A DNA stretch of 64,000 bases. It comes from the human T2T-CHM13v2.0 reference genome, Homo sapiens. The DNA lies in assembly GCF_009914755.1 (NCBI RefSeq), contig NC_060937.1. One strand, 5' to 3'. Shown here piece after piece: positions 1-24,467 of this stretch. Each line of letters starts with the position of its first letter. Position 1 is the first letter of the stretch. The notes under the pieces were generated by a model that saw only the letters and a list, made by a program, of their open reading frames with translations, made no database searches and was not told where the DNA came from. The position numbers were made by a program, and so were the translations under genes.

Positions 1-1040
1 GAACGGAATAGAATTGCAGGAAATAGAACGGAGTGGAGTGGAGTGGAGTTGAGTGGATTGGATGGGAGTGCAGTGGAATGGAATGGAATGTAGTGGAATG
101 GAAAGGAATGCAATGGAATGCAATGGAATGGAAGGGAGTGGAGTGGATTGGAATGGAATGGAGTTTAGAGGAGTGGAGTGGAGTGGATTGGAGTGGAGTG
201 GAATGGAATGGAGTGGAGAGGAGTGTAGTGGAATGGAGTGGAATGGAATGGTAAGGAATGGAATGGAGCAGAGTGGAGTGGAATGGAATGGAGTGGCATG
301 GAATGGAGTGGAGTTGACTGGAATGCAGTAGAGAGGAGTGTAGTGGAGTGGAGTTGAGTGGAGTAGAGTGTAATGGAGTAAAATGGATTATAGTGGAATG
401 GAATGGAGTGGAATGGAATGGAACAGAAAGGAATGGAATGGATTGGAACAGAATGGAGTGGAGTGGAGTGGAATGGAATGGAGTGGCATGGAATGGAGTG
501 GAGTTGACTGGAATGCAGTAGAGAGGAGTGTAGTGGAGTGGAGTTGAGTGGAGTGGAGTGGAGTGTAATGGAGTAAAATGGATTATAGCGGAATGGAATG
601 GAGTGGAATGGAATGGAACAGAAAGGAATGGAATGGATTGGAACAGAATGGAGTGGAGTGGAGTGGAGTAGAGTTGAGTGGAGAGAAGAGGAGTGCAGTG
701 GAATGGAATGAAATTTAGTGGAATGGAGTGGAGTGGAATGGAGTGGAATGGAGTGGAATGGAATGGAGTGGAGTGGAATTGAATGGAATGGAATGGAACT
801 GAATGCAATGGAATGGAATGCAATGGAATGGAAAGGAACGAAATGGAGTGGAGTGGGGTGGAGCAGAGTAGACTTGAGTGGATCGAAGTGCAGTAGAATG
901 GAATGGAATGGAATGGAGTTGAGTGGAATGGAATGGAATGTATTGGAATGCAGTGGAGTGGATTGGAGTGGAAGGGAACGGAATGGATTGGAATGAATGG
1001 AATAGTGAAATGAAATGTGAGATAAGATTGTGCCACTGCA

Positions 1041-1342
1041 GCTGGGCGCGGTGGCTCACGCCTGTAATCCTAGCACTTTGGGAGGCCGAGGCGGGCGGAT
1101 CACAAGGTCAGGAGATCGAGACCATCTTGGCTAACACGGTGAAACCCCGTCTCTACTAAAAATACAAAAAATTAGCCGGGTGCGGTGGCGGGCGCCTGTA
1201 GTCCCAGCGAATCGGGAGGCTGAGGCAGGAGAATGGCGTGAACCTGGGAGGCGGAGCTTGCAGTGAGCCAAGATTGTGCCACTGCAATCCGGCCTGGGCT
1301 AAAGAGCGGGACTCCGTCTCAAAAAAAAAAAAAAAAAAAAAA
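1041..1342 (+). mobile_element. Full-length AluY-lineage SINE
   Basis: gctgggcgcggtggctcacgcc...actccgtctc followed by a pure A tail (1321-1344). AluY diagnostics are present (gatcgagaccatc, ggctaacacggtgaaacccc, gaatggcgtgaacc, gcggagcttgcag). Perfect 17-bp TSD aagattgtgccactgca at 1024-1040 and 1343-1359. Confidence 0.97.
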
Positions 1343-4300
1343 AAGATTGTGCCACTGCACTCCAGTCTGGTAGAAAGTGTGCGATCCCTTCGAAATAAAG
1401 GAATGGAATGGAAAGGAGTGGAATGGGATGGAATGGAGTGGAATGCAGTGGAGTGGAGTGGAATGGAGTGGAGTGGAATGGAGAGGGGTGGAATGGAAAG
1501 GAGCAGAACAGAATGGAATAGAATGGAGTGGAATGGAATGGAATGGAGTGGAAAGGTACTGAGTGGAGTGGAGTGGAGAGAATTGGAGTTGAATGGAGTG
1601 GAATGGAGTGAAATTGATTGGAGTGGAATGGAGTGTAGTGGAATGGAATGGAGTGGAATGGAACGGAACAGAACAGAATGTGACGGAACAGAATGGAACA
1701 GAGTGAAGTGGAGTGGAGTGGTGTGGAATGGAGTGCAATGAAGTTGAATGGAAAGGAGTGGCATGGAATGGAATGGAATGGAACCGACTGGAATGGAATG
1801 GAGTGGAATGGAATGGAATGGAATGGAAAGGAACAGAGTGGAGAGGAGTGGAGTGGAATTGAGTGGAGTGGATCACAGTGCAGTGGAATGGAATGGAATG
1901 GAATGGAATGGAATGGAATGGAATGGAATGGAATGGAAAGGAATTGAATTGAGTGGTGTGGCATGGAATGGAATGAAAAGGAGTGGAGTGGAGTAGAGCG
2001 GAGTTGAGTGGAGTGGATCGGAGTGCAGTGAAATGGAATGGAATGGAACCGAGTTGGTTGGAATGAAATAGAATGTAATGGAATGGAGAGGACTGGACTG
2101 GAGTGGAATGAAGCGGAGTGGAATGGAATGGAATGTAATAGAATGGAATGGAGTGGAGTGGAATGGAATTGAGTGGAATGGAGTGGTGTGGAGTGGAATC
2201 GAGTGGAATGGAATGGAAAGGAGTGGAGTAGAATGGAATGGAATGGAATGGAATGGAGTGGAATGGAATGGAATGGAGTTAAATGGAATGGAGTGGAGAG
2301 AAGTGGAGTGGAGAGGAGTGGAATGGAGTAGAGTGGAGTGGAATGGAATGGGGTGGGGTGGAATGAAGTGGAGTGGAATGGAATGGAATGTAGGAGAGAA
2401 ATGGAATGGAGTGGAGTGGAGTAGAATGGAATGGAGAGGAATTGAGTGGAATGGAGTGAAATGGAATGGAGTGGAGTGGAATGGAATGCAGTGGAAAGGA
2501 CTGGAATAGAACAGAATGGAATGGAACGGAATGGAATGGATTGGAGTGGAGTGGAGTGGAGTGGATTGGAGTGGAATGGAGAAGAAATGAATGGAGTGGA
2601 GTGGAATGGAATGGAATGGAACAGAAAGAAATGGAATGAAATGGAACGGCATGGAATGGAATGGAACAGAATGGAGTGGAGTGGAATGGAGTGGAGTTGA
2701 GTGCAGTGGATAGGAGTGCAGTGGAATGGAACGGAATGGAATGGAATGCAATGGAATGGAATGTAGTGGAGTGGAGTGGAATGGAATAGAATGGAATGGA
2801 ATGGAGTGGACTGGAGTGGAGTGGATTGGAGTGGAGTGGATGGTGTGGAATGGAATGGAATTTATTGGAATGGAATGGAATGGAATGGAGTGGAGTGGAA
2901 TAGAATGTAACGGAATGGAATGGAATAGAAAGGAATGGAATGGAATGGAATGGAATGGAATGGAATGGAAAGGAATGGAATGTTGTGGAGTGGAACGGAA
3001 TGGAGTGGAGTGGAATGGAATGCACTGGAGTGGATTGGATTGGAATGGAATGGAGTGGAAAGGAATGGAATGGAATGGACAGGAATGGAGTGGAATGTAA
3101 TGGAATGCAATGCAATGGAATGGAGTGGAATGTAATGGAATGCAATGGAATGGAATGGAATGGAATGGAATGGAATGGAATGGAATTGAGCGGAGTGGAG
3201 TTGTCTTGAGTGCAGTAGATCAGAGTGCATTGGAATGGAATGGAATGGAATCAAATGGAATGGAATGGAAGGGAGTGGAGCGGAATGGAATGGAATGGAA
3301 TGGAGTACAGTGTAGTGTAGTGTAGTGTAGTGGAATGGAATGAAATGCAGTGGAGTACAGTAGATTGTAGTGGAGTGGAGTGGAATGCAATGGAATGCAG
3401 TGGAATGGAATGGAATGGAGTGGAATGAAATGGAAAGGAGTTTAATGGATTGGCATGGAATGGTGTGGAATGGAATGGAATGGAGTGGTATGCAACGGAA
3501 TGGAATGGTATTGGGGTGGAGTGGAGTGGATTGAAATTGAGTGTAGTGGATCGGAGTGCAGTGGAATGGAATGGAATGGAATGGAATGCAATGAAATGGA
3601 ATGGAATGGAACGGAATGCAACGGAGTGGAGTGAAGTGGAGTGGAGTTGATGGCAGTGGATCAGAGTGCAGTGGAATGGATTGGAACGGAATGGAATGGA
3701 ATGGAGTGGAGTGGAATGGAATGGAATGAAGTGGAATACAATGGAGTCGAGTGGAATGGAGTGGAGTGGAGTGAAATGGATGAAATGGAGTGGAGTGGCG
3801 TGGAGTGGATTGGAATGGAATGGAACCGAATGGAATAGATAGGAAAGGAATGGAACGGAAAGAAATGGAGTAGAGTGGAGTGCAGTGGAGTGGAGTGGAG
3901 TGAAGTGGAGTGGAATCGAGTGGAATGGAGTGGAATGGAGTGGAACAGAGTGGAGTGGAGTGGAACAGAGTGGAGTGGAGTGGAGTGGAGTGGAGTGGAA
4001 TGGAGTGGAACAGAGTGGAGTGGAATGGAGTGGAATGGAGTTTTGCGGAGTGGAGTGGAGGGAATGGAGTTGAGTGGAATGGAGTTTAGTGGAAAGGAAT
4101 GGAATGGAATGGAAGGGAACGCAACTGAGTGGAGTGGAGTGGATTAGAATTGAGTGAAGTGTATCGGAGTGCAGGGGAATGGAATGGAATGGAATGGAAT
4201 GGAATGGAATGGAATGGAATGGAATGGAGTGGAGTGGAGTGGATTGTAGTGGAAAGGAATGGAGTGGAGTGGAATGTATTGCAGTGCAGTGGAGTGAAAT

Positions 4301-23735: not shown

Positions 23736-23825
23736 GTAGTGTAGTGTAGTGTAGTGTAGTGTAGTGTAGTGTAGTGTAGTTTAGTGTAGTGTAGTGTAGT
23801 GTAGTGTAGTGTAGTGTAGTGTAGT
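23736..23825 (+). repeat. (GTAGT)n microsatellite, ~18 copies, within the pentamer satellite
   Basis: Nearly pure gtagt run with one ttagt variant, in phase with the surrounding 5-bp register. Confidence 0.95.
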
Positions 23826-24467
23826 GGAATGGAGTGTAGTGTAGTGCAGTGTAGTGGAGTGGAGTGGAGTTTAATGCAATGGGATGGAATGGAAGGGAGT
23901 GGAGTGGAGTGGAATGCAATGTAGTGAAAGGGAGTGTGATGGATTGGAATGGAGTGGATTGCAGTGGAGCGGAGTGTAGTGGAATGGAATGGAATGGAGT
24001 GGAATGGAATTGAATGGAATGCAATGGAATGGAATGGCGTGGAATGAATTGGAATGGAATGGTGAAATGAAATGTGAGCTGAGATTGTGCTACTTCACTC
24101 CAGGCTGGTTGACAGGGTGAGATATTGTCAAAAGAAAGGAGTGGAGTGGAGTGGAGTTGAATGCAATGGGATGGAATGGAATGGAGTGGAGTGGAGTCGA
24201 GTAGAGTGGTTTGGAGTGGAATGGAATGGAATAGAATGGAAAGGAATGGAATGCAATGGAATGGAATGGAAAGGTGAAATGTAATGCGAGCTGAGATTGT
24301 GCCACTGCACTGCAGCCTGGGTTACAGAGTGAGATCCTGTCGAAAGAAATGAATGTAATGGAATGGAGTGGAATGTAATGGAATGGAATGTAATGGAGTG
24401 GGGTGGAGTGCAGTGGAGTGAGGTGGAGTGGAATGGAATGGGACAGAATGGAATGCAGTGGAGTGGA

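What the first reader, a model, noticed from the sequence alone, without database searches (positions are those of the whole stretch)
1005..24349. Composite satellite: an Alu 3'-end fragment amplified ~41 times as part of a GGAAT/GGAGT repeat unit
Seen: the cassettes are co-oriented, share the same truncation point (gtgagc), carry the same non-Alu leader ggtgaaatgaaat, and have no TSDs or real poly(A). They are therefore not independent insertions but one captured Alu fragment amplified with the satellite. The true repeat unit is cassette plus a variable pentamer run (about 200-600 bp on the right, longer on the left). The spacer/cassette alternation looks CRISPR-like superficially, but it is a TE-seeded satellite. 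I recall ancient HSat3-like arrays with AluJ fragments being mentioned in T2T human centromere annotation, so it may not be new; I cannot verify that here.
Basis: partly seen in the sequence, partly recalled or inferred. Interest (0 to 1): 0.8.

Follow-up and report, generated by a model that had tools for sequence, protein, structure and literature searches.

The report
Old Alu fragment repeated inside HSat3
A 24-kb stretch of human satellite 3 on the short arm of chromosome 13 carries 41 copies of one dead Alu tail piece that was copied along with the satellite, a real feature that the telomere-to-telomere genome papers have already described in general terms.

Summary
Window 1004-24351 contains exactly 41 co-oriented ~79-nt cassettes: a 13-nt leader, ~56 nt of Alu right-arm 3' end, and a short A-rich tail. 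They sit in a GGAAT/GGAGT pentamer array that runs directly into alpha satellite at ~24,480.

All cassettes share the same 5' and 3' boundaries. None has its own target-site duplication or poly(A). A young full-length Alu inserted into cassette 1 has both, which gives an internal contrast.

- The same two junctions occur 2,388 and 1,737 times in the T2T genome, with 0 hits for reversed controls, on at least 15 chromosomes.
- The whole 27-kb block recurs on chr21 (98.9% identity) and chr14 (97.0%).
- Spacers change length only in 5-bp steps.
- A ~5-kb multi-unit duplication overlies the basic units.
- The array continues left of the window.

Cassettes differ as much within arrays (15%) as between them (14-19%). 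All five Alu CpGs were already TpG before amplification, so the capture is old.

Published T2T work (Altemose 2021, Rhie 2023, Hoyt 2021) already reports Alu or ancient TE fragments in HSat3 units. Verdict: real, correctly read, already known, low interest. The Alu subfamily (J versus S/Y) cannot be resolved from 56 nt.

The parts
1..24480 (+). HSat3-type pentamer array (GGAAT/GGAGT, G-rich strand on +). It continues left of the window and ends directly at alpha satellite.
   Evidence: GGAAT 1411 and GGAGT 1078 occurrences in 24,480 nt, GC skew 0.71-0.87. Junction read. Left extension.
1004..1040 (+). Cassette 1, 5' part (leader plus Alu start), ending in the first TSD copy (1024/1026-1040).
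1041..1345 (+). Young full-length dimeric Alu with a ~25-nt poly(A), inserted into cassette 1 (not part of the repeat unit).
   Evidence: Two Metazoa_SRP matches, 1041-1155 and 1175-1322, E 2e-10 and 8e-12. The first 200 nt is 95-98% identical to the 37 scored hits outside the three paralogous copies, which are scattered over many chromosomes.
1346..1401 (+). Cassette 1, 3' part. It starts with the second TSD copy (1346-1360, GATTGTGCCACTGCA, plus up to 2 ambiguous A).
4441..4519 (+). cassette 2
5087..5165 (+). cassette 3
6039..6117 (+). cassette 4
7550..7628 (+). cassette 5
9547..9625 (+). cassette 6
10450..10526 (+). cassette 7 (2-nt deletion); start of ~5-kb higher-order copy A
10928..11006 (+). 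cassette 8
11260..11338 (+). cassette 9
11622..11700 (+). cassette 10
11929..12007 (+). cassette 11
12515..12593 (+). cassette 12
12871..12949 (+). cassette 13
13296..13374 (+). cassette 14
13607..13685 (+). cassette 15
13969..14047 (+). cassette 16
14725..14803 (+). cassette 17
15416..15494 (+). cassette 18; start of higher-order copy B (best match is cassette 7, lag 4966)
15932..16010 (+). cassette 19
16249..16327 (+). cassette 20
16596..16674 (+). cassette 21
17198..17276 (+). cassette 22
17554..17632 (+). cassette 23
17910..17988 (+). cassette 24
18172..18250 (+). cassette 25
18599..18677 (+). cassette 26
18960..19038 (+). cassette 27
19356..19434 (+). cassette 28
19747..19825 (+). cassette 29
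20294..20372 (+). cassette 30
20656..20733 (+). cassette 31 (1-nt deletion)
20857..20935 (+). cassette 32
21279..21357 (+). cassette 33; start of the partial third higher-order copy (best match is cassette 8)
21616..21694 (+). cassette 34
22042..22120 (+). cassette 35
22339..22417 (+). cassette 36
22821..22899 (+). cassette 37
23228..23306 (+). cassette 38 (closest to the consensus; used as the reference copy)
23609..23687 (+). cassette 39
24061..24139 (+). cassette 40
24273..24351 (+). cassette 41 (last; about 130 nt of pentamers follow)
24481..27977 (+). Diverged 171-bp alpha-satellite monomers abutting the HSat3 array. This is context, and it belongs to the block shared with chr21 and chr14.

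Best explanation
This is a stretch of human satellite 3 in which one ancient, 5'-truncated and CpG-dead Alu right-arm end (~56 nt) became embedded in the (GGAAT)n array. It carries a fixed 13-nt pentamer-like leader and a ~10-nt A-rich tail remnant.

The fragment was then multiplied passively, as part of the satellite's own unit of expansion. It was not spread by retrotransposition.

The array grows and shrinks by in-register slippage or unequal exchange, so spacers change in 5-bp steps. It also grows by occasional multi-unit duplications of about 5 kb, roughly 9-11 cassettes.

Whole blocks, including the junction with alpha satellite, have been exchanged among acrocentric short arms. The capture happened once, before this HSat3 lineage spread over many chromosomes.

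The cassette itself most likely has no function of its own. It is a passenger and a useful sequence landmark.

Shown here: the anatomy, the shared junctions, the copy numbers, the paralogy and the 5-bp step rule. Inferred: the order of events, the age and the lack of function.
For: 1. Same boundaries in the window. All 41 of 41 window cassettes share the leader, the Alu start and the tail, all on the + strand. Only Alu positions 223-258 and onward are represented.

2. Internal contrast. The full-length Alu at 1041-1345 has a ~25-nt poly(A) and a 15-17-bp TSD. The cassettes have neither.

3. Genome-wide junctions. The 5' junction 31-mer with up to 3 mismatches gives 2,388 hits. The 3' junction 33-mer gives 1,737. 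The reversed controls give 0. Only 29 of 41 window cassettes pass the 31-mer test, so the true number is higher.

4. Other chromosomes. In 4-kb samples from chr3, 4, 9, 10, 16, 17, 20 and Y, 66 of 66 Alu-core hits lie on the GGAAT strand. One search scored 65 cassettes: 60 from those eight samples and 5 from the 8 kb to the left on chr13. Of these, 54 have the leader with 4 or fewer mismatches. Seven more (chr17, chr10) have it shifted by a 1-nt deletion. And 57 of 65 have the tail with 4 or fewer mismatches.

5. CpG decay before amplification. Five sites that are CG in sampled young Alus are TG in 82-94 of 103 cassettes at each site. The decay therefore preceded amplification.

6. Spacer steps. 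Spacing mod 5 falls in two classes in 36 of 39 intervals (chi-square p 3e-9). In addition, 16 of 16 non-zero spacing differences between the chr13 and chr21 copies are multiples of 5.

7. Higher-order duplication. Eight cassettes of the run 10450-13969 (10450, 10928, 11929, 12515, 12871, 13296, 13607, 13969) have their best match in colinear order at a lag of 4.3-5.0 kb. For 11260 and 11622 that partner ranks third and second. Three cassettes (10928, 11260, 11622) recur again at 21279-22042.

8. Paralogy. The 27-kb block is 98.87% identical on chr21 and 97.0% on chr14 (inverted). The same sat3/alpha junction and a colinear run of 37-45 cassettes occur in six paralogous regions.

9. Literature. 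The preprint passages seen describe Alu or ancient-TE fragments in HSat3 units.
Against: - Unit length is not fixed (201-3437 bp), so there is no single 'repeat unit' in the strict sense.
- The ~5-kb duplication is only 78% identical overall, against a 73-76% background for any pentamer alignment. It rests mainly on cassette order.
- Three of the 65 cassettes scored (chr3 twice, chrY once) have a shortened 5' junction, and one (chr16) has a poorly matching leader. These look like later deletions, but that is an inference.
- No outgroup genome could be searched, so the single early capture and the age are inferred from human sequence alone.
- How the fragment was first truncated and embedded is unknown.
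- Lack of function is assumed, not tested.
Confidence: 0.9

Rival explanations
1. The cassette spread secondarily into pre-existing pentamer arrays, by gene conversion or by short-patch insertion of the 79-nt piece, rather than being co-amplified with its spacers.
For: - Spacers are very variable (201-3437 bp) and cassette density falls towards the left.
- Cassettes are no more alike within an array than between arrays: 15.3% against 14-19%.
Against: - Colinear multi-cassette duplications include the spacers.
- Spacer differences between paralogs are pure 5-bp steps, which explains the variable spacing without new insertions.
- The fixed pentamer-like leader and tail travel with the fragment everywhere.
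Confidence: 0.06
2. The cassette is kept because it does something, for example as a protein-binding or RNA motif that punctuates HSat3, or as a boundary element next to alpha satellite.
For: - Thousands of copies keep recognisable junctions.
- The density is highest next to the alpha-satellite junction.
Against: - Mean divergence from consensus is 10.1% in the Alu part, with no conserved sub-block beyond the generally well-kept Alu core.
- There is no Rfam match to any cassette at E up to 10 in 900-12000.
- Copies carry deletions.
- No experimental data were examined here.
Confidence: 0.03
3. The 41 cassettes are independent Alu insertions into a preferred pentamer target.
For: Alu elements do insert into this array, as the young Alu at 1041-1345 shows.
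Against: - All 41 copies have an identical truncation point, leader and tail and the same strand.
- They have no TSD and no poly(A).
- They share pre-amplification CpG-to-TpG changes at five sites.
- Their order is colinear in paralogs.
Confidence: 0.005
4. The pattern is an assembly artefact of a hard-to-assemble acrocentric region.
For: The region is highly repetitive and has near-identical paralogs on chr21 and chr14.
Against: - Cassettes differ from each other by 15% on average and each spacer is distinct, so there is nothing to collapse or mis-tile locally.
- The same architecture is seen independently on many chromosomes.
Confidence: 0.005

Closest known systems
HSat3-associated Alu fragments reported in T2T work (Altemose et al. 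2021 preprint 10.1101/2021.07.12.452052; Rhie et al. 2023 preprint 10.1101/2022.12.01.518724; both cite or build on Bandyopadhyay et al. 2001, which I could not read)
   Same: This is the same phenomenon: HSat3 arrays on the acrocentrics and Y with Alu or ancient-TE fragments as part of the repeating units. Rhie et al. also state there is no local homogenisation and no clustering by chromosome (passage). That matches my within-array and between-array divergences of 15.3% and 14-19%.
   Different: The passages I saw give no junction-level anatomy: fixed leader and tail, single truncation point, copy number, or the 5-bp step rule. Rhie et al. speak of AluY fragments seeded from PAR1. The cassette here looks older than the AluY-type insertion in the same array, but I cannot show that they mean the same fragments.
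HSat1B / DYZ2 (2.5-kb unit made of an Alu-derived subunit, an AT-rich part and a GC-richer part)
   Same: A satellite whose unit includes one captured Alu piece that is amplified with it (passages).
   Different: It is a different satellite, AT-rich rather than pentameric. Its unit length is fixed, its copies are more than 98% homogeneous, and its Alu piece is much larger. Here the unit length varies 17-fold and copies are about 15% apart.
Satellite III clone pTRS-2 (Vissel, Nagy and Choo 1992), 'shared by chromosomes 13, 14 and 21 and contiguous with alpha satellite' (title seen in the reference list; listed as an acrocentric SATIII subfamily in PMC8125562)
   Same: The distribution and context match. 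This block is on chr13, chr21 (98.9% identity) and chr14 (97.0%), and it abuts alpha satellite.
   Different: No clone sequence was available, so identity is untested. More diverged copies also exist on chr15 and chr22.
TE-derived and composite satellites in general (T2T 'composite elements', Hoyt et al. 2021 preprint, passages; SINE-derived satellites in squamates, PMC10702118, search listing only)
   Same: A transposable-element fragment recruited into a tandem array.
   Different: Here the TE piece is a minor part, about 79 of roughly 370 nt, of a unit dominated by an older simple-repeat satellite.

Membership tests
Human satellite 3 (HSat3) | Array derived from the pentamer GGAAT/CATTC with strong strand asymmetry | tested here: met
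   There are 1411 GGAAT and 1078 GGAGT occurrences in 24,480 nt, and GC skew is 0.71-0.87.
Human satellite 3 (HSat3) | Pericentromeric or acrocentric short-arm location, next to other centromeric satellites | tested here: met
   The window is chr13:11.346-11.410 Mb (hub note; one search confirms C13). The array abuts 171-bp alpha satellite.
HSat3 subfamilies A1-A6 and B1-B5 (Altemose 2014) | Presence of the subfamily-specific 24-mer listed in Table 1 of PMC4022460 | tested here: inconclusive
   There are 0 exact matches for all 11 HSat3 24-mers. With 1 mismatch, A2 has 2 and A4 has 1. With 2 mismatches, A2 has 35, B5 has 29, A4 has 17 and A1 has 7. One 24-mer per subfamily is too thin a test, so no subfamily is assigned.
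Alu (7SL-derived SINE) | Sequence homology to an Alu element | tested here: met
   The cassette consensus aligns to positions 223-288 of the window's full Alu and to 16 Alu 3' ends from nine loci on other chromosomes. The 21-nt core is shared exactly with several of them.
Alu (7SL-derived SINE) | Dimeric ~300-nt element with 7SL-like Alu domains | tested here: not met
   Only the inserted young Alu matches Metazoa_SRP, twice. No cassette does at E up to 10. Cassettes hold only the last ~56 nt.
Alu (7SL-derived SINE) | Hallmarks of retrotransposition for each copy: TSD and poly(A) | tested here: not met
   The flanks are pentamers and the tail is GAAAGAAAGG or GAAATAAAGG. The young Alu at 1041-1345 meets this test.
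   There are two informative sites.

Site 1: the cassette consensus has the state of 9 of 9 young copies. Four of the 7 older sampled copies have the other state, as do 4 of 40 window cassettes.

Site 2: the cassette is one change from the state seen in the old copy L045_3001, and 4 of 40 window cassettes are identical to it. It is two changes plus a CpG decay from the young state.

Which state belongs to which named subfamily is recalled, not tested. No Dfam models were available.
Composite or nested tandem repeat with a TE subunit | A TE fragment recurs as part of a tandemly arrayed unit | tested here: met
Composite or nested tandem repeat with a TE subunit | Consistent unit length | tested here: not met
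   Spacing runs from 201 to 3437 bp.
   The spacers are GGAAT/GGAGT runs of 120-3360 nt, and the sequence is human chr13.
pTRS-2 satellite III | Sequence identity to the cloned probe | not testable with these tools
   The clone sequence and the paper are not held. Only the distribution (13, 14, 21) and the contiguity with alpha satellite agree.

The most novel reading that the evidence does not exclude
All HSat3 Alu cassettes in the human genome descend from one capture of an Alu right-arm end that was already old and CpG-dead. There are at least 2,400 by junction count and about 3,400 after correcting for the 29 of 41 sensitivity.

On this reading the capture predates AluY and the dispersal of this HSat3 lineage from ancestral acrocentric arms to chr1, 3, 4, 9, 10, 16, 17, 20 and Y. 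The cassette would then not be AluY seeded from PAR1.

The cassette could serve as a built-in clock and lineage tag for reconstructing how HSat3 arrays moved between chromosomes.
Probability: 0.5. Interest if true: 0.35.

Novelty: already known. Interest (0 to 1): 0.15.

Why it matters
Mostly as bookkeeping. It shows that a striking, CRISPR-looking alternation in raw sequence is an ordinary feature of one lineage of human satellite 3.

There is practical value. The cassettes are the only non-pentamer landmarks in these arrays. They anchor alignments, let paralogous acrocentric blocks (chr13, 14, 21 and others) be compared unit by unit, and expose the 5-bp step rule of array length change.

If the single early capture holds up in ape genomes, the cassette would be a handy marker for the history of HSat3 dispersal from acrocentric short arms.

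Tried and rejected
1. HSat3 subfamily assignment with the 24-mers of Altemose 2014 Table 1: no exact match for any subfamily, so none was assigned.

2. Rfam on 900-12000 at E up to 10: only the young Alu matches (Metazoa_SRP twice, plus Alu-derived mir-1268 and mir-3135 below their thresholds). No cassette matches.

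3. Possible conversion of the young Alu by the cassette. The young Alu's own 3' region contains the same 17-mer as its TSD and the cassette, so I suspected conversion. I rejected this because its closest relatives on other chromosomes (L041 on chr4, L040 on chr15) carry the same or nearly the same letters.

4. Self-BLAST at 86% identity or more found no long off-diagonal match. With a sensitive setting the best is 9057-12206 against 14046-17198 at 78.4%, only slightly above the 73-76% pentamer background. The ~5-kb duplication therefore rests on cassette order.

5. Strand-asymmetric mutation. C>T is 6.9% against G>A 4.9% per site-copy (Fisher p 0.016). T>G is 1.3% against A>C 0.26% (p 0.0035). 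Copies share ancestry, so the counts are not independent. This is suggestive only.

6. Age from sampled Alus: only 16 copies, and the majority consensus is skewed by one young lineage, so this is used qualitatively.

7. Per-chromosome tallies of junction hits are not possible, because only the first 100 places are listed.

8. Papers not held: Choo 1990, Jarmuz 2007, and the PMC ids I recalled for the journal versions of Altemose 2022 and Hoyt 2022. Bandyopadhyay 2001 and Vissel 1992 were seen only as references.

11. Searches for prior print: 'HSat3' plus 'Alu' (58 papers); 'HSat3' plus 'Alu fragment' (2 papers); satellite III/Alu/acrocentric/pentameric; GGAAT/Alu/satellite 3/repeat unit; AluJb plus HSat; pTRS and pR clone names. 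None of the passages I read gives the junction-level description.

Full report
**What is there**

The first 24.5 kb of the window is a G-rich-strand pentamer satellite. It holds 1411 GGAAT and 1078 GGAGT occurrences, and its GC skew is 0.71-0.87. Scattered through it are short C-containing islands.

A 20-nt motif spanning the leader and the Alu start, searched with up to 5 substitutions, finds exactly 41 sites. All are on the + strand, from 1004 to 24273, and none has more than 3 mismatches. A 24-nt Alu-core pattern with up to 3 mismatches gives 32 hits, all +, where 100 dinucleotide shuffles give none.

The 40 uninterrupted copies align almost without gaps over about 79 nt. Each has three parts:
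- a 13-nt leader (GGTGAAATGAAAT);
- about 56 nt that begin at GTGAGC and end at CCTGTC;
- a 10-nt A-rich piece (GAAAGAAAGG, or GAAATAAAGG in a left-hand variant), after which the pentamers resume.

**Alu origin**

The cassette consensus aligns to positions 223-288 of a full-length Alu that lies in the window itself. It also aligns to the 3' ends of 16 Alu copies from nine loci on other chromosomes, fetched by their similarity to that Alu.

No other part of Alu occurs in the array. Of 27 BLAST hits, 26 are on the plus strand and all fall in Alu positions 223-258. The single minus-strand hit is a 12-nt chance match.

**Internal contrast**

Cassette 1 is split by a real Alu insertion at 1041-1345.
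- It is dimeric, with two Metazoa_SRP matches.
- The first 200 nt of the element is 95-98% identical to many copies on other chromosomes.
- It has a poly(A) of about 25 nt and a 15-17-bp target-site duplication at 1026-1040 and 1346-1360.

The 41 cassettes have none of these hallmarks. This insertion is shared by the chr21, chr14 (inverted) and second chr13 paralogs. It is absent from the chr14a, chr22 and chr15 regions sampled.

**Not independent insertions, and not local**

The 31-nt 5' junction occurs 2,388 times in the assembly at up to 3 mismatches. The 33-nt 3' junction occurs 1,737 times. Both reversed controls give 0. Only 29 of the 41 window copies pass the first test, so the real number is higher, roughly 3,400.

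The listed hits lie on chr1, 3, 4, 9, 10, 13, 14, 15, 16, 17, 20, 21, 22 and Y.

I searched 4-kb samples of eight other chromosomes with the Alu core alone.
- All 66 of 66 hits lie on the GGAAT strand.
- One search scored 65 cassettes: 60 from those samples and 5 from the 8 kb left of the window. Of these, 54 have the leader with 4 or fewer mismatches.
- Seven more (chr17, chr10) have the leader displaced by a shared 1-nt deletion.
- Three (chr3 twice, chrY once) have a shortened 5' junction, and one (chr16) matches poorly.
- 57 of 65 have the tail with 4 or fewer mismatches.

The capture therefore predates the spread of this HSat3 lineage.

**How the array changes**

Cassette spacing runs from 201 to 3437 bp. 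The median is 371.5 bp from 10450 rightwards.

Spacing mod 5 falls into two classes in 36 of 39 intervals (p 3e-9). All 16 non-zero spacing differences between the chr13 and chr21 copies are multiples of 5. Spacers therefore grow and shrink by whole pentamers, as expected from in-register slippage or unequal exchange.

Over this lies a duplication of about 5 kb.
- Eight cassettes of the run 10450-13969 (10450, 10928, 11929, 12515, 12871, 13296, 13607, 13969) have their best match in the same order 4.3-5.0 kb to the right.
- For 11260 and 11622 that partner ranks third and second.
- Three cassettes (10928, 11260, 11622) recur again at 21279-22042.

Overall identity of that duplication is only 78%, against a 73-76% pentamer background, so it is old.

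**Surroundings and paralogs**

The array ends at about 24,480 and runs straight into diverged 171-bp alpha satellite.

The whole 27 kb, including that junction, recurs on chr21 at 98.87% identity and, inverted, on chr14 at 97.0%. Four further regions (chr14, chr22, chr15 and a second chr13 site) have the same junction and a colinear series of 37-45 cassettes, but they are only 92-96% identical near the junction.

This fits the title of Vissel et al. 1992, seen as a reference only, on a satellite III shared by 13, 14 and 21 and contiguous with alpha satellite.

To the left, the array continues beyond the window for at least 8 kb, with five sparser cassettes of the left-hand variant.

**Age and subfamily**

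Five positions that are CG in sampled young Alus are TG in 82-94 of 103 cassettes at each site. They had therefore decayed before amplification, all on the same strand.

Mean divergence from the consensus is 8.8% over the cassette and 10.1% over the Alu part. Pairwise divergence is 15.3% within the window and 14-19% between arrays. There is thus no local homogenisation, as Rhie et al. also state.

The cassette ancestor has the CpG-decay level of the older sampled Alus (0.5 against 0.42-0.58), not of the young ones (0-0.25). This is a small and skewed sample.

The AluY-type insertion in the same array differs by only about 3% from its nearest relatives on other chromosomes. I therefore infer that the capture is considerably older than that insertion.

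The two subfamily-informative sites within the 56 nt point in opposite directions, so 'AluJ' is neither confirmed nor excluded. Which state belongs to which named subfamily is my recollection.

**Comparison with print**

- Altemose et al. [quoted passage not shown]
- Rhie et al. [quoted passage not shown] They build a tree and infer a seeding event.
- Hoyt et al. 2021 (preprint, passages) mention a new repeat model for 'an AluJb fragment' without saying where it lies.
- A 2026 preprint on acrocentric evolution (passages) argues that HSat3 arrays were seeded on acrocentric short arms and later moved. This fits the chromosome list found here.

I found no passage with the junction-level anatomy. 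The preprint supplements are closed and several key papers are not held, so I do not claim that it is unpublished.

**Verdict**

The kind of thing is already known.

The most novel reading left open is a single pre-AluY capture that tags all cassette-bearing HSat3. That needs ape and monkey genomes to test.

Noticed in passing
window 1041-1345 (TSD copies at 1026-1040 and 1346-1360): A young full-length Alu with a ~25-nt poly(A) and a 15-17-bp TSD is inserted inside cassette 1. Its 3' end carries lineage-specific letters shared with copies on chr4, chr15 and chr1 (L041, L040, L042). Four other sampled young copies carry a 7-nt internal duplication at that spot. The insertion is shared by the chr21, chr14 (inverted) and second chr13 paralogs, but not by the chr14a, chr22 and chr15 regions sampled.
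   Followed up: yes
window ~24,480; L013, L016, L017, L022, L025, L026: The HSat3/alpha-satellite junction is the same sequence in six paralogous acrocentric regions (chr21, chr14 twice, chr22, chr15, chr13 second site). This is a shared block of the acrocentric short arms.
   Followed up: partly
window ~28,180-30,000, minus strand: An SVA-like element lies inside alpha satellite. It has a T-run at about 28,180-28,225, a GC-rich 40-46-bp VNTR at 28,700-29,530, an Alu-like part at 29,530-29,900 and an (AGAGGG)n run at 29,900-30,000. A ~200-nt AT-rich non-satellite piece precedes it at 27,975-28,180; it looks L1-like from recall and was not tested.
   Followed up: partly
window 48,835; also 40,096-40,781 and 44,282-45,657: The alpha-satellite monomers switch strand at about 48,835, where the TRF consensus flips. 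Two gaps in the 171-bp arrays were not examined.
   Followed up: no
cassettes genome-wide (alignment of 103 copies): All five former Alu CpGs became TG, none CA, so the C was lost on the G-rich strand each time. Later substitutions show a mild bias in the same direction: C>T 6.9% against G>A 4.9%, and T>G 1.3% against A>C 0.26%. The counts are not independent events, so this is suggestive only.
   Followed up: partly
L030 (chr17:27.817 Mb), L031 (chr10:38.974 Mb): The cassettes in the chr17 and chr10 arrays share a 1-nt deletion in the Alu part and a distinct downstream motif (GGATTTAGAATGG). This marks a sub-lineage common to these two chromosomes.
   Followed up: no
window 1004-9625, 10450, 14725, 15416; L049: There are two cassette variants. 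The left-hand type has GCTAAG, CCAGTCTGGG and CCAGTCGAAATAAAGG, is sparse, and continues left of the window. The right-hand type has GCTGAG, CCAGCCTGGG and CCTGTCGAAAGAAAGG and is dense near alpha satellite. A few left-type copies are embedded in the ~5-kb higher-order unit.
   Followed up: partly
window 1173-1224 (+) and 1241-1300 (-): There are Rfam matches to mir-1268 and mir-3135 inside the young Alu, both far below their gathering scores. These are Alu-derived miRNA families, and the matches reflect the Alu rather than miRNA genes.
   Followed up: no
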